Shown: positions 36,551 to 41,046 of the stretch, one piece after another | How positions within the stretch are numbered: position 1 is the first letter of the stretch | Layout: every line of letters begins with the position of its first letter | Sequence record: PQ314493 | Origin: Escherichia phage vB_EcoS_UALMA_PCEc3 | Length of the DNA stretch: 44,679 nt | Direction: 5' to 3' (one strand) | Notes under the pieces: model-generated | The model's database searches: none | What the model was told of the DNA's origin: nothing | The model's input: the letters and a program-made list of their open reading frames with translations, nothing else | Position numbers and translations under genes: made by a program

Positions 36551-37024
36551 ATGATTTACGTATTTGATATTGACGGAACTATAGCTAATAATGAGCATAG
36601 AAATCACCTTTTACCATCCAGTGACCTTCACTTGACTTCAAGTTGGAAGTATTACAATAAAGCCTGTTCTGGAGACTCACCAATAATCCCAATGATAAAC
36701 ATGATGAACAAACTTGCGGAATTATGTCCTGTTTACATAATGACATCCAGAAGTGATGAAGTTGAATGGAGAACCCTTGAGTGGCTTCAGGATAATAAGG
36801 TTGAGTATGATTCGATATACATGAGAAGTCGACATGACAACCGAAAGGATTACAAAATAAAAGAGGGATGGCTTAATGAAATCAGTGGTGGCGATAAAGG
36901 AAGTGTGGTTATTTTTGAAGATAACCCACAAGTAATTAAGCACCTAAGAAGTTGCGGATACACCGTTATGGCTGTATGTGAATATGAAGAACTACCTAAA
37001 GATTGCGAATCTCACGGAGAATGA
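36551..37024 (+). CDS. HAD-superfamily phosphatase (putative)
   Basis: N-terminal DIDGT motif; box copy upstream. Confidence 0.5.
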   Translation: MIYVFDIDGTIANNEHRNHLLPSSDLHLTSSWKYYNKACSGDSPIIPMINMMNKLAELCPVYIMTSRSDEVEWRTLEWLQDNKVEYDSIYMRSRHDNRKDYKIKEGWLNEISGGDKGSVVIFEDNPQVIKHLRSCGYTVMAVCEYEELPKDCESHGE

Positions 37025-37581
37025 AAATGACTAAATTATTTATCCTTAATGGCCCCGCTGGAGTTGGCAAGGACACTATAGCGGATATCATGGTTGAGAC
37101 TGGTGTAGCCAAAGAAAAGGTATCATTCAAGTCACCAATTTTTAACGTTGCAAAAGGAATGCTATCAAGCGATGAATTTGATGGATTCATCAAGAATTAC
37201 GACAATAGAGACTATAAGGAATCACCTCATGGATTTCTTGGAGGTATGACAGTTCGTGAATTTATGATTTGGATTAGCGAGTCTGTAATGAAGCCAGTCT
37301 TTGGTGATGATATTTTCGGTAAAAGGCTAGCCCAGTCACTTGGTTATGGTTGCTACATTTGCGCTGATGGTGGATTTGCTAGCGAGATTAAGCCACTGAT
37401 CTACGCTGGTGTTGAGGTCACGTTAATCAGATTGCATAGGGCAGGGTACACATTTGATGGCGATAGTCGCTCATACATTCACGGGGTGTGCGCAAGAGAA
37501 ATTGATGTTCGTGTTGTTGATTGTGATATTGATGGAACATCAGCATTTGTAAGGCACGTAATAAATAGCACGAATTGCTAA
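37021..37581 (+). CDS. P-loop nucleotide/nucleoside kinase (putative)
   Basis: Walker A NGPAGVGKDT; ATG 37021 overlaps upstream stop (track start TTG 37003); C-terminus NSTNC encoded by box. Confidence 0.55.
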   Translation: MKMTKLFILNGPAGVGKDTIADIMVETGVAKEKVSFKSPIFNVAKGMLSSDEFDGFIKNYDNRDYKESPHGFLGGMTVREFMIWISESVMKPVFGDDIFGKRLAQSLGYGCYICADGGFASEIKPLIYAGVEVTLIRLHRAGYTFDGDSRSYIHGVCAREIDVRVVDCDIDGTSAFVRHVINSTNC

Positions 37582-37649: not shown

Positions 37650-37826
37650 ATGACTAAAATGATTTATTGCACCAAAAACAACTCCAAGACGCTGCCATTT
37701 ACAGTTAACCAGCCGTACAATGCAGAGTATCAAGGTGACGGATACTACAAGATTTATGGCGACGATATGACGTGGATTTTAGCGCCGATTGATGGTTCGC
37801 TGGTTGAATTTATTATCGCAGACTAG
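37650..37826 (+). CDS. hypothetical small protein
   Basis: track ORF 37575..37826; likely start ATG 37650 after cassette leader and RBS. Confidence 0.4.
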   Translation: MTKMIYCTKNNSKTLPFTVNQPYNAEYQGDGYYKIYGDDMTWILAPIDGSLVEFIIAD

Positions 37827-37851
37827 CGCATCTAAAACATAGCTTTACAAG

Positions 37852-37880
37852 TGGGGGGCCTTTTGGCTCCCCTTTTTTAT
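37852..37880 (+). terminator. rho-independent terminator
   Basis: hairpin ggggggccttttggctcccc + T-run. Confidence 0.6.
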
Positions 37881-37945
37881 GCTTCTTTTCCGAGCGGTGC
37901 TAATGTATCATTCTTTTACTAACTTAAACATTGACAAATACACAA

Positions 37946-38173
37946 ATGGAGGATCACATGAGGGAAGTAATCAACGCTGCTACGGCGTCAACTGGAGGGG
38001 CAGCGGTAACTGGAGCGGCAACTGGTCAGATGACTATAGCAATAATCAGCCTTATCGCTTTAATCATTTTTGGTGCGTGGGGTGCTTACTGGAAGTTTAA
38101 GGATAGCCAGGCGATTCGGCGCGCTCTTGAATCAGGAGACTTAAAAACAGCAATCAAGATAAGGAGTAAGTAA
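37946..38173 (+). CDS. pinholin-like holin (two TMDs, possible dual start)
   Basis: Gly/Ala-rich weakly hydrophobic TMD1 and strongly hydrophobic TMD2; two in-frame ATGs (37946, 37958) after RBS; immediately upstream of SAR endolysin. Confidence 0.55.
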   Translation: MEDHMREVINAATASTGGAAVTGAATGQMTIAIISLIALIIFGAWGAYWKFKDSQAIRRALESGDLKTAIKIRSK

Positions 38174-38659
38174 ATGAAGCAGAAGCTGCTAATTAGCGCG
38201 GCTACGGCTGCGGCAATATACATCGCAGCACCGCTTATTGAGCTCGTAGAGGGTGTGGAAAACAAGCCTTACATGGACATTGCTGGAATCCCTACTGTTT
38301 GCTCTGGCGTTACTGGCCCTGACGTAATTTGGGGTAAGACTTACAGCAACAGGGAGTGCCGTAACCTGCTGGAGAAGCACATCCAGATTCATGCTAAGTA
38401 TGTTCAGGATGCGGTCACCTACCCAATTGCACCGCAGACAAGGGCGGCGTTAATCAGCTTTAGCTATAACGTTGGTGGTAATGCTATGAGGAAATCTACT
38501 GCCGTTAAGTTAATTAACCAGGGTAAGATTGAGCGGGGTTGCAAGGCTCTCGGGATGTGGACAAAGGCTACCATTAATGGCAAAAAGGTTGTAGTTAAGG
38601 GTTTGGTTAATCGCAGGAATGAGGAGATTAAGTTATGTTTAAGCGGATTGCAGCGTTAG
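38174..38659 (+). CDS. SAR endolysin (T4/lambda-type lysozyme fold)
   Basis: N-terminal signal-anchor-release-like segment; catalytic E-x8-D-x5-T spacing (VEGVENKPYMDIAGIPT). Confidence 0.8.
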   Translation: MKQKLLISAATAAAIYIAAPLIELVEGVENKPYMDIAGIPTVCSGVTGPDVIWGKTYSNRECRNLLEKHIQIHAKYVQDAVTYPIAPQTRAALISFSYNVGGNAMRKSTAVKLINQGKIERGCKALGMWTKATINGKKVVVKGLVNRRNEEIKLCLSGLQR

Positions 38660-39024
38660 TAATGTGCGCAGCTTTATCTGGGTGCTCAGCAACCTCTGCT
38701 CTGACAGGATTAATTGGCAGTAAGCCAGAGATTAGCGCTCAAGCTGGTGCAGAAAACAATAAGGTTGGTGTTGGTTTAACGAACAGGGTTGACTCAAGTA
38801 ACTCCAGCGATGCCACAGTTAAGGATTCCAGCGTGGGCTCACTGGATAGTTCTAGCGGGAAAAAGACTGCTGATAATTCGATTAAGGCCTCTACAATCAC
38901 TGCCGAAAAGATTGAGATTACCAATAACGACTCATCAGCGCTTCCGTGGATTGGAACAGGAGCGATGGGTTTGCTGGTTATGATTCTCCTTGCCTTAATC
39001 TTAAGACGTAAAAAAGCCTCCTAA
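38635..39024 (+). CDS. unimolecular spanin (T1 gp11-like)
   Basis: lipobox LSGC near N-terminus plus C-terminal transmembrane helix followed by RRKKAS. Confidence 0.65.
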   Translation: MFKRIAALVMCAALSGCSATSALTGLIGSKPEISAQAGAENNKVGVGLTNRVDSSNSSDATVKDSSVGSLDSSSGKKTADNSIKASTITAEKIEITNNDSSALPWIGTGAMGLLVMILLALILRRKKAS

Positions 39025-39038
39025 TGGAGGCTATATTT

Positions 39039-39374
39039 TTAGCTAAATAACTCTTCGTCAGTCATTGTCCCTATGTTCATCATCTCTTTTATGTACTGGC
39101 TTTCATACCCGTTAAGCGCCTCAAAGTTGAAACCAAATGGCCTCTTCAAGCTACCCTTACTAACAAACTCACCGCACTTGCCATCAATGTATCCGGCACT
39201 CAACATCTTTGCGCAGAACTCCTTTGAAGCTGCGATGCAAAAATCTCGATGCGATAACCCCGCCGCCTTACTGAATCTCTGAGAGTCCTTATGCTTGTAG
39301 ATGAATCGCGCCAAATGCTGGCGCGTGAAGTATGAATACGACTCACAGAAGCGGTATAAATCCAAAATAAACAT
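39039..39374 (-). CDS. hypothetical protein (111 aa)
   Basis: ORF from track, last gene of minus-strand operon. Confidence 0.4.
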   Translation of the reverse strand: MFILDLYRFCESYSYFTRQHLARFIYKHKDSQRFSKAAGLSHRDFCIAASKEFCAKMLSAGYIDGKCGEFVSKGSLKRPFGFNFEALNGYESQYIKEMMNIGTMTDEELFS

Positions 39375-39462: not shown

Positions 39463-41046
39463 TCACCCCAGCAATCTCGGATTAATGTAAACTTTATCAC
39501 CAATCAGGCACGTATAGTTTTTCTCATCAAGCATTGGCAGTAGGTGATCTTTAATCTTCGTCATTACTCCAGCCTGAGCCTCGAATGGCTTAACCTTTCG
39601 CGCCGCTTCATACAATGAGCGAATGCCAACAACACCCTTACCGTTTTTACCCTGCTTGATCAGGATATCAATCAGCTTATTCATCTCGGCATTGTCGCCA
39701 GCGTGACCAGCCGCGTTGGCAGATGACAGATAAGTCTTGCTAAGTTCCTGGAACATGATTACAGCTTCCTGCATGGTGTCGAGTTCAATTTCTCTGGACT
39801 TCTGCGGGCTACCGCCGTTAGGGTTGAACCAGTTACGAACAGTATGGAGAACCGCCGCAATCCTGATTGCCTGTTTATCGAACTTACCAAGCGCGCCGCG
39901 CAACATTGTGTGTGAATACTTACCGCCGTCAGCAAGGTGCGGCTCCATTTCCTGACGCGCTCTGTTGAGGTATTTCATTGCCGAGTTACTCACTGTCAAT
40001 TTTACATCTTGCTCATTCATTATTTCGTGAACAAGACGGAAGTAGTCAGCCTTCAGGCAACCATCAATTGGCTCATACGTTGATTCGCCATTTTCATCAA
40101 CGAATACACGCTCACCCAAGAATGACTTTTCACGCACAAGCAGGAAGCGCTCCGATACACCGATACCACGTGCGCCAGCATTCATGATTGCATTGATTGT
40201 TTCATCCTGCGCAATTACCGATATGCAACCCATAGCAACGAAGCTCATGTTGTTCTCTGCGTTCGCACGCGCAATAGATACGTTACCAGCATCCCACGCT
40301 TTAAGCACAAGTTCGCTGTTCGTCTTCTTCGAGCCGTCACCGTAAGTCATTCCCAATAGTGAGTTAACACTCGTTGCCTCATCAGAGATGACCGCGAAGT
40401 TGCCCTGACGGTTGTTTATTCGTGCAAGACCTTCCGGTGTGGTATCTGATACCGGGAATACGATATCGCACAGTTTCTCGAGCTTCTCCTCTAACTCCTC
40501 TTTCTCCTCAAAAAGTGAGGCCATCTCTGATGGTGACTTTTCCTGTTTCATCTCTTTTGATAATGCAGACAGCTTTGCCATAATCTTTTTGCGCTCACGC
40601 TTCCGCACTTCATTAAGCCGCTCAGTCTCAGCGATCATTGGAGCAATTGAGAGCGAGTTAATTGCTGATTTACCTGTCGATGGCGGCTGGCTTGTTACGA
40701 CGTATAGCGAAGTCGGTTGCTGGGTTCCGTGATACTCTACTGTAAAACGTCCCAGCATGGCGGCAGAAATACACCCCATAAAGTGCATATAAGCTGAAGA
40801 CTCTGGAAATTGGACAGAACGGGCAATATTGGCTGACAGCTTACCAACAACATCAATGTCATTACCGAGTGAGATTACGGGATACTTGTCATTAGCCGCA
40901 TCAATCTCGACTGGTGCTTTCCAGAATGATTGAGACTGGCGATAGCCATTGGCATTAATGGCGACTCGCAGTGGCGGGAGGTTGTCTGCGGCAGCAATTG
41001 CCATAACCTGTTCAACAGATAGTTTATCTTCGTTGAAATCAAACAT
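39463..41046 (-). CDS. P-loop NTPase-like protein (deviant Walker A PSTGKS, Walker B VISDE); long paralogue
   Basis: 527 aa; N-terminal ~45 aa and C-terminal ~70 aa homologous to ORF 43459..43983. Confidence 0.55.
   Translation of the reverse strand: MFDFNEDKLSVEQVMAIAAADNLPPLRVAINANGYRQSQSFWKAPVEIDAANDKYPVISLGNDIDVVGKLSANIARSVQFPESSAYMHFMGCISAAMLGRFTVEYHGTQQPTSLYVVTSQPPSTGKSAINSLSIAPMIAETERLNEVRKRERKKIMAKLSALSKEMKQEKSPSEMASLFEEKEELEEKLEKLCDIVFPVSDTTPEGLARINNRQGNFAVISDEATSVNSLLGMTYGDGSKKTNSELVLKAWDAGNVSIARANAENNMSFVAMGCISVIAQDETINAIMNAGARGIGVSERFLLVREKSFLGERVFVDENGESTYEPIDGCLKADYFRLVHEIMNEQDVKLTVSNSAMKYLNRARQEMEPHLADGGKYSHTMLRGALGKFDKQAIRIAAVLHTVRNWFNPNGGSPQKSREIELDTMQEAVIMFQELSKTYLSSANAAGHAGDNAEMNKLIDILIKQGKNGKGVVGIRSLYEAARKVKPFEAQAGVMTKIKDHLLPMLDEKNYTCLIGDKVYINPRLLG

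What the first reader, a model, noticed from the sequence alone, without database searches (positions are those of the whole stretch)
37946..39024. Lysis cassette: pinholin-like holin, SAR endolysin and a unimolecular spanin
The endolysin (38174..38659) has a Gly/Ala-rich N-terminal signal-anchor-release segment and the E-x8-D-x5-T catalytic spacing of T4/lambda-type lysozymes. The upstream 80-aa protein has a weakly hydrophobic Gly/Ala-rich TMD1 plus a strongly hydrophobic TMD2 and two closely spaced in-frame ATGs (37946, 37958), suggestive of a holin/antiholin dual start. The downstream ORF (38635..39024) combines a lipobox (LSGC) with a C-terminal transmembrane helix, the architecture of T1 gp11-type u-spanins. 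In the antiholin candidate the extra residues (MEDH) are acidic, which is atypical because antiholins usually add basic residues.
Basis: partly seen in the sequence, partly recalled or inferred. Interest (0 to 1): 0.5.

Follow-up and report, generated by a model that had tools for sequence, protein, structure and literature searches.

The report
Ordinary T1-type phage lysis cassette
This is the standard three-gene host-bursting module (holin, membrane-tethered lysozyme, one-piece spanin) of a T1/Rtp-like phage, already described in close relatives; the proposed two-start regulation of the holin does not hold, because the extra ATG lies inside the ribosome-binding site.

Summary
The window is the deposited genome PP134917.1 ('Pseudomonas phage PsgS01F'), a Braunvirinae (Rtp/Guelphvirus-like, T1-related) siphophage. 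The three proteins are full-length homologues of T1 gp13, gp12 and gp11 (58%, 45.5% and 38.5% identity). The curated T1 record names these pinholin, SAR endolysin and u-spanin.

The endolysin's best solved relatives are the phage 21 SAR endolysin R21 and RrrD (E about 1e-27), with E26/D35/T41 aligned to the catalytic triad. The spanin has T1's own lipobox (LSGC), Ser at +2, no periplasmic Cys and a C-terminal TMD with an RRKK tail.

The dual-start holin/antiholin idea is not supported:
- ATG 37946 overlaps the GGAGG Shine-Dalgarno (37948-37952) that serves ATG 37958.
- ATG 37946 has no SD of its own (anti-SD duplex +0.7 versus -9.3 kcal/mol).
- It is replaced by AAGGTGG in 11 of 19 sampled close relatives and absent outside the subfamily.
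- It would add acidic, not basic, residues.

'Pinholin' remains a reasonable but untested label. The holin has no sequence similarity to S21, and annotators disagree on one versus two TMDs. Verdict: already known, low interest. The only useful by-product is that the GenBank record annotates an out-of-frame ORF in place of the holin.

The parts
37650..37826 (+). Upstream neighbour: 58-aa DUF7244 standalone SH3-like protein (homologue of T1 gp14). Only a possible accessory, not shown to belong to the cassette.
   Evidence: Pfam DUF7244 E 3.9e-29 and PHROG 4788 E 9e-34. PMC13164509 proposes it as an auxiliary lysis component. I saw no N-terminal hydrophobic signal segment by eye, and a terminator separates it from the holin.
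37853..37879 (+). Intrinsic terminator (GGGGGGCC-TTTT-GGCTCCCC followed by a T-run) that closes the upstream unit
   Evidence: Found. The hairpin and T-run are conserved in all relatives aligned. Annotated as a terminator in T1, CEB_EC3a and Shelby.
37883..37911 (+). Candidate promoter of the lysis operon: weak -35 (TTCTTT), 17-nt spacer, -10-like TATCAT at 37906-37911. Inferred only.
   Evidence: The -10-like hexamer is conserved as TATCAT, TACAAT or TAAAAT across relatives. BPROM-derived promoter annotation at the equivalent place in SU57. Not picked up by the simple consensus scan.
37948..37952 (+). Shine-Dalgarno GGAGG of the holin gene; the 'first' ATG (37946-37948) overlaps it by one base
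   Evidence: Sequence read. There is a 5-nt spacer to ATG 37958. Anti-SD duplex is -9.3 kcal/mol, reached at about 1% of sampled window positions (1.2% at or below -9). ATG 37946 gives +0.7 kcal/mol.
37958..38173 (+). Holin, 71 aa (T1 gp13 family). SAR-like Gly/Ala/Ser/Thr-rich N-terminal segment V4-G23 (37967-38026); hydrophobic TMD M25-W45 (38030-38092); basic cytoplasmic C-terminal tail.
   Evidence: PHROG 2877 'holin' E 4e-37, whose 71-position model matches exactly from this Met. 58% identical over the full length to T1 gp13. The 71-aa start is conserved in all 24 relatives examined. Hydropathy.
38174..38659 (+). SAR endolysin, 161 aa, GH24 T4/R21-type muramidase. SAR segment L5-I22 (38186-38239). 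Catalytic E26 (38249-38251), D35 (38276-38278), T41 (38294-38296). SD AAGGAG at 38161-38166. The start codon abuts the holin stop.
   Evidence: Pfam PF00959 E 1.2e-34. Best solved relatives are RrrD 4ZPU and R21 3HDE/3HDF, E 4e-28 to 7e-27, with the triad aligned. 45.5% identical to T1 gp12 'SAR endolysin'. SAR hydropathy and composition are about the same as the R21 SAR.
38635..39024 (+). Unimolecular spanin, 129 aa. Lipoprotein signal with lipobox LSGC (Cys17 at 38683-38685), Ser at +2, an 87-residue Cys-free periplasmic domain, C-terminal TMD W105-L123 (38947-39003) and an RRKKAS tail. SD GAGGAG at 38621-38626. Overlaps the endolysin 3' end by 25 nt.
   Evidence: PHROG 1804 E 1.5e-48. 38.5% identical to T1 gp11 and 92% to Rtp. 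RTP is listed as a 129-aa u-spanin in SpaninDB. T1's lipobox is also LSGC. Hydropathy. AF2 places helices at 2-27 and 106-127.
39015..39032 (.). Bidirectional terminator hairpin (AGCCTCC-TAAT-GGAGGCT) overlapping the spanin stop codon. It closes the lysis operon and the convergent minus-strand genes.
   Evidence: Found on both strands. Equivalent terminators are annotated in T1, SU57, CEB_EC3a and Shelby.

Best explanation
A canonical T1/Rtp-type three-gene lysis operon on the + strand. It is bounded by intrinsic terminators at 37853-37879 and 39015-39032, and the three genes are abutting or overlapping, which suggests translational coupling.

(1) Holin. The 71-aa holin is translated from the single start ATG 37958 and accumulates in the inner membrane. 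It is anchored by TMD M25-W45, with its basic tail in the cytoplasm. Its conserved, weakly hydrophobic N-terminal segment either starts in the bilayer and leaves it (pinholin-like behaviour) or is periplasmic from the outset. At a critical level the holin triggers and collapses the membrane potential.

(2) Endolysin. It is exported by Sec and held inactive on the periplasmic face by its uncleaved SAR segment (L5-I22). Depolarisation releases the segment. The enzyme then refolds as R21 does, and the E26/D35/T41 muramidase cuts the peptidoglycan.

(3) Spanin. It is lipidated at Cys17 and sorted to the outer membrane (Ser at +2), while its C-terminal TMD stays in the inner membrane. Once the peptidoglycan mesh is gone, it disrupts the outer membrane, probably by fusing the two membranes.

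What is shown here: the gene structure, the homology, the motifs, and the position of the ribosome-binding site. What is inferred from the T1 and phage 21 systems: every dynamic step.

The ATG at 37946 is a by-product of the ATGGAGG allele of the Shine-Dalgarno sequence, not an antiholin start.
For: Identity of the window: 100% match to PP134917.1, with Rtp-like and Guelphvirus-like coliphages as the nearest relatives.

Homology:
- PHROG holin family E 4e-37, Pfam lysozyme E 1.2e-34, PHROG spanin family E 1.5e-48.
- Full-length identities to T1 gp13, gp12 and gp11 of 58%, 45.5% and 38.5%.
- The curated T1 record names them pinholin class 2, SAR endolysin and u-spanin, citing PMID 30135120 for spanin function.
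- Close relatives are annotated SAR endolysin and u-spanin.

Literature:
- T1 gp11 complements lambda RzRz1, its lipobox is LSGC, and its family sits in pinholin + SAR-endolysin cassettes with no periplasmic Cys (PMC6139136).
- RTP is listed as a 129-aa u-spanin.

Endolysin: it aligns to R21 (3HDE/3HDF) and RrrD (4ZPU) from within the N-terminal hydrophobic (SAR) segment through the catalytic triad, E about 1e-27. Its SAR segment has KD mean 2.09 and 50% G/A/S/T, against 2.11 and 63% for R21.

Single start:
- The SD sits 5 nt before ATG 37958, with an anti-SD duplex of -9.3 kcal/mol against +0.7 for ATG 37946.
- The PHROG holin model begins at the second Met.
- The 71-aa start is conserved in every relative examined, while the upstream ATG occurs in only 7 of 19 sampled Braunvirinae and in none of 5 other Drexlerviridae.
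Against: - No experiment exists for this phage, and I found none for any T1-family holin or endolysin.
- Holin topology is unsettled. T1 and Shelby are annotated with one TMD; OzMSK and TLS with two. The single-sequence AF2 model gives one continuous helix over residues 2-58 and no hairpin.
- Absence of a signal-peptidase site in the endolysin was judged by eye only; SignalP was not available.
- The beta-rich periplasmic domain expected of the gp11 family was not reproduced. The single-sequence AF2 model has low confidence (mean pLDDT 56) and shows the domain as coil.
- Low-level initiation at ATG 37946 cannot be excluded from sequence alone.
Confidence: 0.88

Rival explanations
1. Genuine dual-start holin. 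ATG 37946 yields a 75-aa isoform (MEDH-holin) that modulates lysis timing as an antiholin, or as an accelerator given its acidic extension. ATG 37958 yields the 71-aa holin.
For: Two in-frame ATGs lie 4 codons apart with the reading frame open between them. The arrangement recurs in 7 sampled Braunvirinae. One annotator (vB_Ec-G8) called the longer form. A dual start has been suggested for the TLS holin, though at a different position.
Against: - ATG 37946 overlaps the GGAGG that serves ATG 37958, and nothing SD-like lies upstream of it (AAACAUUGACAAAUACA, duplex +0.7 kcal/mol).
- Eleven sampled close relatives read AAGGTGG at the same place, with no ATG. Several have in-frame stops 5-6 codons upstream. 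T1, Shelby, LF82-40, PeterMerian and grams have no in-frame ATG within 9 codons.
- No sdi-like RNA structure is predicted (-2.1 kcal/mol for 37920-37975).
- Known antiholin behaviour depends on added positive charge at the N-terminus; MEDH carries net charge -2.
Confidence: 0.05
2. The holin is a single-TMD, N-out/C-in holin (class III-like topology) and not a two-TMD pinholin. On this reading the Gly/Ala/Thr-rich N-terminal 24 residues are periplasmic from the start, and hole size is unknown.
For: The curated T1 note reads '1 transmembrane domain, predicted N-out and C-in', and Shelby is given 'one transmembrane domain by TMHMM'. The N-terminal segment is very weakly hydrophobic: the summed Hessa-type score is +6.7 for the best 19-mer, against -1.5 for the TMD. 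Only one polar residue (Q24) separates the two segments, leaving no obvious loop. AF2 gives one continuous helix.
Against: - The N-terminal segment is uncharged for 20 residues, and its hydropathy equals that of the experimentally established SAR-type TMD1 of S21 (KD 0.84 versus 0.52; score 6.7 versus 6.4).
- It is the best-conserved part of the protein (AAT..TGG....ATGQ), which suggests helix-helix contacts.
- The partner enzyme is a SAR endolysin, which needs only depolarisation.
- Other curators give two TMDs.
- In the pinholin model the final active topology is the same, so the two readings differ only in the starting state.
Confidence: 0.35
3. The endolysin carries an ordinary cleavable Sec signal peptide and is secreted as a soluble active enzyme, rather than being tethered by a SAR domain.
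For: Its N-terminus has the n-region and h-region layout of a signal peptide (MKQK followed by an Ala-rich hydrophobic stretch) and contains small-residue triplets (A12-A13-A14; I17-A18-A19).
Against: - Cleavage after A19 would put Pro at +1, which established knowledge says blocks signal peptidase I. Cleavage after A14 would leave an h-region of only about 7 residues.
- The hydrophobic segment ends 4 residues before catalytic E26, and in R21 the equivalent N-terminal region refolds into the enzyme body (prior knowledge). The HMMER alignment to R21 starts within this segment, at A12.
- Constitutive secretion of an active muramidase would lyse cells prematurely.
- T1-family homologues are curated as SAR endolysins.
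Confidence: 0.05
4. The cassette has four components: the upstream 58-aa DUF7244 SH3-like protein (37650..37826) acts as a peptidoglycan-binding helper of the endolysin.
For: Pfam DUF7244 E 3.9e-29. In Drexlerviridae the gene is found only next to the lysis module, in 188 of 522 genomes, and has been proposed as an auxiliary lysis factor (PMC13164509).
Against: - A conserved intrinsic terminator, and probably a separate promoter, lie between it and the holin.
- By eye the protein has no N-terminal hydrophobic signal or membrane segment, so it would be cytoplasmic until the envelope fails.
- Most Drexlerviridae lack it.
- No functional data exist.
Confidence: 0.15

Closest known systems
Phage T1 lysis cassette gp13-gp12-gp11 (pinholin, SAR endolysin, prototype u-spanin; AY216660, PMID 30135120, PMC6139136)
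   Same: Same gene order and same flanking terminators. All three proteins are full-length homologues (58%, 45.5% and 38.5% identity). The holin is 71 aa in both. The lipobox LSGC is identical. The endolysin has the E-8-D-5-T triad. The spanin has a C-terminal TMD with a basic tail and no periplasmic Cys.
   Different: Here the spanin start overlaps the endolysin 3' end by 25 nt, whereas in T1 the two genes share a single base (endolysin ends and spanin starts at locus position 2393). The spanin TMD and tail are shorter. T1 has no in-frame ATG near its SD. T1 has an HNH gene upstream, whereas this phage has PNK and dNMP-kinase genes there.
Phage Rtp rtp63-rtp65 and other Braunvirinae (CEB_EC3a, SU57, OzMSK)
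   Same: The region is 88-94% identical at DNA level. Against Rtp, the holin is 98.6% identical, the endolysin 89% and the spanin 92%. SU57 and OzMSK are already annotated as holin, (SAR) endolysin and unimolecular or u-spanin. RTP is in SpaninDB.
   Different: Essentially only the SD allele differs: ATGGAGG here and in CEB_EC3a, SU57, T145P1, 2725-N35 and G8; AAGGTGG in Rtp, OzMSK, DTL and others.
Phage 21 S21(68/71)-R21-Rz/Rz1: the experimentally defined pinholin / SAR-endolysin paradigm
   Same: The endolysin is a true homologue of R21 (E 1.7e-27, aligned from within the N-terminal hydrophobic segment, no Cys in the SAR segment). The holin is a similar size (71 aa), with a weakly hydrophobic first segment, a hydrophobic second segment and a basic tail.
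   Different: The holin has no detectable sequence similarity to S21. S21 has a real dual start (MKSM, adding a Lys) annotated with its own SD, which this holin lacks. Phage 21 uses a two-component embedded spanin (Rz/Rz1) and not a u-spanin.

Membership tests
T1 gp11-type unimolecular spanin | N-terminal lipoprotein signal with a lipobox Cys | tested here: met
   MFKRIAALVMCAA-LSGC, with Cys17. The lipobox is identical to wild-type T1 gp11 LSGC.
T1 gp11-type unimolecular spanin | Outer-membrane sorting: no Lol-avoidance Asp at +2 | tested here: met
   Ser18-Ala19 follow Cys17. The +2 rule itself comes from established knowledge of E. coli lipoprotein sorting.
T1 gp11-type unimolecular spanin | C-terminal transmembrane domain with a cytoplasmic basic tail | tested here: met
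   W105-L123 has KD mean 2.37 and a summed Hessa-type score of -2.35, and is followed by RRKKAS. AF2 places a helix at 106-127, with its highest pLDDT there.
T1 gp11-type unimolecular spanin | Sequence homology to T1 gp11, and position as the last gene of the lysis cassette | tested here: met
   38.5% identity, E 6e-24 to T1 gp11. PHROG 1804 E 1.5e-48. 92% identical to RTP, which is listed in SpaninDB as a 129-aa u-spanin.
T1 gp11-type unimolecular spanin | No periplasmic cysteine; periplasmic domain predicted beta-rich and not coiled-coil | tested here: inconclusive
   The Cys-free criterion is met (only C11 and C17). The beta content was not reproduced: the single-sequence AF2 model gives low-confidence coil and no coiled coil. 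SpaninDB gives 30% strand and 6% helix for RTP.
T1 gp11-type unimolecular spanin | Complements a lambda Rz/Rz1 lysis defect; located in both membranes | not testable with these tools
   Shown for T1 gp11 only (note in the T1 record).
SAR endolysin, R21 type (GH24) | GH24 lysozyme domain with the E-x8-D-x5-T catalytic triad | tested here: met
   PF00959 E 1.2e-34. E26, D35 and T41 align with the LEGV / KDIVG / WTVC motifs of R21 and are invariant in 8 Drexlerviridae homologues.
SAR endolysin, R21 type (GH24) | N-terminal uncharged, weakly hydrophobic G/A/S/T-rich segment directly preceding the catalytic Glu | tested here: met
   L5-I22 is 50% G/A/S/T with KD mean 2.09, against 63% and 2.11 for the R21 SAR. 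It ends 4 residues before E26.
SAR endolysin, R21 type (GH24) | Segment not cleaved by signal peptidase I | tested here: inconclusive
   Judged by inspection only: Pro20 would be at +1 of the best small-residue site, and the alternative site leaves an h-region that is too short. No SignalP available.
SAR endolysin, R21 type (GH24) | No Cys in the SAR segment (separates it from the P1 Lyz disulfide-caging type) | tested here: met
   The cysteines are at positions 43, 62, 123 and 155 only.
SAR endolysin, R21 type (GH24) | Membrane-potential-dependent release and activation | not testable with these tools
   Requires fractionation and energy-poison experiments.
Pinholin (phage 21 S21-68 paradigm, class II) | Two TMDs, N-in/C-in, with TMD1 a SAR-type segment that leaves the membrane | tested here: inconclusive
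   The N-terminal segment V4-G23 matches S21 TMD1 in hydropathy. However, only Q24 separates it from the TMD, AF2 shows a single helix, and curators split between one and two TMDs.
Pinholin (phage 21 S21-68 paradigm, class II) | Sequence homology to S21 | tested here: not met
   BLASTP E 3.1 over 8 residues. At most it is a functional analogue, not a member of the S21 family.
Pinholin (phage 21 S21-68 paradigm, class II) | Encoded next to, and working with, a SAR endolysin | tested here: met
   The holin stop abuts the endolysin ATG. The endolysin is an R21 homologue.
Pinholin (phage 21 S21-68 paradigm, class II) | Forms nanometre-scale holes that depolarise but do not pass proteins | not testable with these tools
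   No experimental data found for any T1-family holin.
T1 gp13 holin family (PHROG 2877) | Full-length sequence homology | tested here: met
   PHROG 2877 E 4e-37. 58% identity to T1 gp13 over 71 of 71 residues. 819 phage records hold a relative.
Dual-start holin/antiholin (lambda S107/S105; S21 71/68) | Two in-frame start codons a few codons apart | tested here: met
   ATG 37946 and ATG 37958.
Dual-start holin/antiholin (lambda S107/S105; S21 71/68) | Both starts accessible to ribosomes (an SD upstream of the first start, or a regulatory RNA structure) | tested here: not met
   The only SD lies downstream of, and overlaps, ATG 37946. Duplex energies are +0.7 versus -9.3 kcal/mol. No stable upstream structure is predicted. 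Phage 21, by contrast, has GGAGG upstream of both starts.
Dual-start holin/antiholin (lambda S107/S105; S21 71/68) | The extension adds positive charge that retards externalisation of the N-terminus or TMD1 | tested here: not met
   MEDH has net charge -2. The mechanism is as described for S21.
Dual-start holin/antiholin (lambda S107/S105; S21 71/68) | Conservation of the motif among homologues | tested here: not met
   Present in 7 of 19 sampled Braunvirinae and in 0 of 5 other Drexlerviridae.

The most novel reading that the evidence does not exclude
In the subset of Braunvirinae that carry the ATGGAGG allele, a small fraction of ribosomes might initiate at the SD-embedded ATG 37946 and make an MEDH-extended holin. 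Its acidic N-terminus would be driven across the energised membrane more easily. The isoform would then act as a lysis accelerator, a dual start with polarity opposite to lambda S107 and S21-71, tuning lysis time in that clade.
Probability: 0.04. Interest if true: 0.4.

Novelty: already known. Interest (0 to 1): 0.08.

Why it matters
It matters little for biology. The cassette type has been described since the T1 and Rtp genomes and the spanin surveys, and close relatives already carry the same annotation.

Practical value is limited to annotation hygiene:
- The deposited PsgS01F record lacks the holin and annotates an out-of-frame ORF in its place.
- Several relatives carry wrong starts for the holin (75 or 89 aa) or the spanin (120 aa, lacking the signal peptide).
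- The case shows that an ATG created by an ATGGAGG Shine-Dalgarno can be mistaken for a dual-start motif.

Whether T1-family holins are truly pinholins remains experimentally open, but that question is not specific to this window.

Tried and rejected
- **Single-sequence AlphaFold2, spanin.** Mean pLDDT 56. Only the signal peptide and C-terminal TMD came out as helices, and the periplasmic domain as low-confidence coil.
- **Single-sequence AlphaFold2, holin.** Mean pLDDT 70, with one continuous helix over residues 2-58. Neither model settles topology or beta content. No alignment-based run was made, because the expensive homologue search was not justified for a settled question.
- **Family libraries for the holin.** NCBIfam has no model for it. 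Pfam gives only a sub-threshold TatA_B_E hit, E 0.02.
- **Literature.** The J Virol 2018 T1 spanin paper (PMID 30135120 / PMC6206483) could not be retrieved. No paper mentions PsgS01F.
- **Regulatory RNA upstream of the holin.** I looked for an sdi-like structure and found none.
- **TTGACA at 37932-37937 as a -35 element.** Rejected. The hexamer 17 nt downstream (TCACAT) is poor and would start transcription inside the gene. The motif is also absent in T1 and Shelby.
- **Alternative ORFs.** The 73-aa out-of-frame ORF 37879..38100 (the one annotated in GenBank), the 64-aa ORF 38789..38983 embedded in the spanin gene (a possible o-spanin) and the antisense ORF 38086..38265 have no significant family hits. 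The embedded ORF has no lipobox.
- **Internal spanin start M10 (38662).** Rejected. It would leave MCAALSGC with no n-region, and its SD is weak at -3.3 kcal/mol.
Full report
**What the window is.** The region 37800-39100 is 100% identical to GenBank PP134917.1, 'Pseudomonas phage PsgS01F' (44,679 bp, the same length as the window). It is 88-94% identical to a large group of E. coli siphophages of the Drexlerviridae subfamily Braunvirinae, including CEB_EC3a, Rtp, SU57, OzMSK and DTL. The first 25 kb of the window is 96% covered at 93.4% identity by E. coli phage vB_EcoS_CEB_EC3a. The finding therefore lies in a T1-related genome whose relatives are well annotated.

**Checking the observation.** The ORF listing and the raw sequence confirm the following:
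- A holin-frame ORF, open from TTG 37931, with in-frame ATGs at 37946 and 37958 and a stop at 38171-38173.
- An ORF at 38174..38659 (161 aa).
- An ORF at 38635..39024 (129 aa).

The endolysin has the N-terminus MKQK-LLISAATAAAIYIAAPLI and the spacing E26-x8-D35-x5-T41. The last ORF begins MFKRIAALVMCAALSGC and ends WIGTGAMGLLVMILLALIL-RRKKAS. A simple hydropathy scan (Kyte-Doolittle and a recalled Hessa scale) gives clear transmembrane-grade peaks for holin residues 25-45 (71-aa numbering) and spanin residues 105-123. It gives intermediate values for the endolysin N-terminus.

**Identity of the three genes.**
- Pfam finds Phage_lysozyme (PF00959) in the middle protein, E 1.2e-34.
- PHROGs assigns the three proteins to a holin family (phrog_2877, E 4e-37), the endolysin family phrog_7 (E 1e-47) and the 'Rz-like spanin' family phrog_1804 (E 1.5e-48).
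- Translated searches find relatives of the holin in 819 phage records and of the spanin in 1,123, almost all from Drexlerviridae-type phages of enterobacteria.
- Direct comparison with phage T1 gives 58% (holin, 71 of 71 residues), 45.5% (endolysin) and 38.5% (spanin) identity. Comparison with Rtp gives 98.6%, 89% and 92%.

The T1 GenBank record, curated by the Center for Phage Technology, names the three genes 'pinholin class 2', 'SAR endolysin' and 'u-spanin', the last with a reference to functional work. OzMSK, SU57 and Shelby carry equivalent labels.

The spanin survey of Kongari et al. (PMC6139136) states four relevant points. T1 gene 11 complements the lambda RzRz1 defect. Its wild-type lipobox is LSGC. 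Members of the gp11 family sit in pinholin + SAR-endolysin cassettes. No u-spanin has a periplasmic cysteine. Its supplementary tables list RTP as a 129-aa u-spanin with an 86-residue periplasmic domain predicted at 30% strand and 6% helix. The protein here matches on every sequence-level criterion: the same lipobox, Ser at +2, cysteines only at positions 11 and 17, a C-terminal TMD and a basic tail.

**The endolysin.** Its closest solved relatives are RrrD (4ZPU, E 3.7e-28) and the phage 21 SAR endolysin R21 (3HDE full length, 3HDF truncated; E about 1e-27). The alignment starts within the N-terminal hydrophobic segment (at A12), and E26/D35/T41 fall on the R21 triad motifs. The triad is invariant in eight Drexlerviridae homologues.

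The segment L5-I22 has KD mean 2.09 and 50% Gly/Ala/Ser/Thr, close to the R21 SAR segment (2.11 and 63%). It contains no Cys, so it is of the R21 type and not the P1 Lyz disulfide-caging type. I could not run SignalP. By inspection the best small-residue site would place Pro20 at +1, which disfavours signal peptidase I.

**The holin and the 'pinholin' label.** In 71-aa numbering the protein has three parts:
- An uncharged segment V4-G23 (VINAATASTGGAAVTGAATG): 80% G/A/S/T, KD mean 0.84.
- A single polar residue Q24, then a strongly hydrophobic segment M25-W45.
- A basic tail.

I verified my recalled S21 sequence against the phage 21 genome (100% match) and compared the two proteins. The established SAR-type TMD1 of S21 has KD mean 0.52 and a best-19-mer score of 6.4, against 0.84 and 6.7 for the N-terminal segment here. 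The two TMD2 segments are also similar. The N-terminal segment is the most conserved part of the family.

The pinholin-like reading is therefore compatible with the sequence, and the SAR partner supports it. Several points argue for caution. There is no sequence similarity to S21. No loop separates the two segments. Curators disagree: one TMD for T1 and Shelby, two for OzMSK and TLS. A single-sequence AF2 model shows one long helix. I found no experimental paper on any T1-family holin. I therefore file it in the T1 gp13 holin family, as a probable functional analogue of a pinholin.

**The dual start.** This is the only non-routine claim in the finding, and it fails four tests.

1. *Position.* The sequence reads caaATGGAGGatcacATG. 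GGAGG (37948-37952) lies 5 nt before ATG 37958 and overlaps ATG 37946 by one base. Duplex energy with the 16S rRNA 3' end is -9.3 kcal/mol for the region upstream of ATG 37958, a value reached at about 1% of sampled window positions (1.2% at or below -9). It is +0.7 kcal/mol for ATG 37946, whose upstream sequence contains a single G. The endolysin and spanin starts have comparable strong SDs (-8.8 and -9.4).
2. *Conservation.* Among 19 distinct Braunvirinae sampled, 7 read ATGGAGG, 11 read AAGGTGG (no ATG) and 1 reads AAAGGTG with a GTG start. Several have in-frame stops 5-6 codons upstream. T1, Shelby, LF82-40, PeterMerian and grams have no in-frame ATG within 9 codons. The 71-aa start and a purine-rich SD at the same spacing are present in all of them. 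The PHROG holin model also begins at the second Met.
3. *RNA structure.* No stable structure resembling the lambda sdi element is predicted around the starts.
4. *Charge.* In S21, antiholin character comes from extra positive charge at the N-terminus, and adding two positive residues turns S21-68 into an inhibitor. The natural S21-71 adds a Lys, and GGAGG lies upstream of both of its starts. MEDH carries net charge -2.

The upstream ATG is best explained as a by-product of one allele of the Shine-Dalgarno sequence.

**Operon anatomy.** An intrinsic terminator (37853-37872 plus a T-run) precedes the cassette, and a bidirectional hairpin (39015-39032) overlaps the spanin stop codon. Both are conserved or annotated in relatives. 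Between the upstream terminator and the SD lies a conserved -10-like hexamer: TATCAT at 37906-37911, appearing as TACAAT or TAAAAT in other subfamilies. It coincides with a promoter annotated in SU57; this is an inference only. The holin stop abuts the endolysin ATG, and the spanin ATG lies 25 nt inside the endolysin gene, which suggests translational coupling.

**Mechanism (inferred by homology).**
- The holin accumulates and, on triggering, depolarises the inner membrane.
- The Sec-exported, SAR-tethered endolysin is released and refolds into an active muramidase.
- The u-spanin is lipid-anchored in the outer membrane through Cys17 and held in the inner membrane by its C-terminal TMD. It is freed from the peptidoglycan mesh and disrupts the outer membrane, probably by membrane fusion, as proposed for gp11.

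**Neighbour.** The 58-aa ORF at 37650..37826 is a DUF7244 SH3-like protein, the T1 gp14 homologue. A 2026 paper proposes it as an auxiliary lysis component. Here it is separated from the holin by the terminator and, by eye, lacks an N-terminal signal segment. I list it only as a possible accessory.

**Verdict.** The cassette is already known: the same genome is deposited, and relatives are annotated identically. Interest is low.

Noticed in passing
window 37879..38100 versus 37958..38173: The deposited PP134917.1 annotation has no holin. Its CDS0036 is the out-of-frame 73-aa ORF 37879..38100, which has no family match. The true 71-aa holin frame, with PHROG holin E 4e-37, is unannotated.
   Followed up: yes
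whole window (tested on 1-25000 and 37800-39100): The record is labelled as a Pseudomonas syringae pv. garcae phage from coffee leaves. Yet the genome is 93-94% identical, at 96% coverage and including the tail-fibre region, to E. coli phage vB_EcoS_CEB_EC3a, and nearly all other near relatives are labelled as coliphages. T1-like phages are notorious laboratory contaminants (PMC13164509). Twenty-one 'Campylobacter phage' records in the same family show the same oddity; the one I opened (A110b) is flagged UNVERIFIED. The host assignment deserves checking.
   Followed up: partly
window 37650..37826: A 58-aa standalone DUF7244 SH3-like protein lies just upstream of the holin. It was recently proposed as an auxiliary lysis-module component in Drexlerviridae. 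Here it co-occurs with the PNK (36551..37024) and dNMP-kinase (about 37003..37581) genes, a combination that paper reports in only seven genomes. A terminator separates it from the holin.
   Followed up: partly
window 37900..37945: The untranslated region between the terminator and the holin SD is conserved. It holds a -10-like TATCAT (37906-37911), then ACTAACTTAAACATTGACA (37919-37937). The TTGAC motif is kept in Braunvirinae, LF82-40 and grams (a TTGAC also lies in this region in PeterMerian) but is absent in T1 and Shelby. Its function is unknown, and it does not look like a usable -35 element.
   Followed up: partly
L005 (Rtp RefSeq) 1462-1824; L029 (vB_Ec-G8) 913-1275; L002, L030, L034 holin CDS: Start-site errors recur in relatives. 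The spanin is annotated as 120 aa in Rtp RefSeq and G8, starting after the endolysin stop and so lacking the lipoprotein signal. The holin is annotated as 89 aa in OzMSK, BEK1-1 and ZL19, or 75 aa in G8, instead of 71 aa.
   Followed up: yes
window 39015..39032: A perfect 7-bp hairpin (AGCCTCC/GGAGGCT) overlaps the spanin stop codon. It scores as a terminator on both strands and sits between the lysis operon and the convergent minus-strand genes (39039..39374 and helicase 39463..41046).
   Followed up: no
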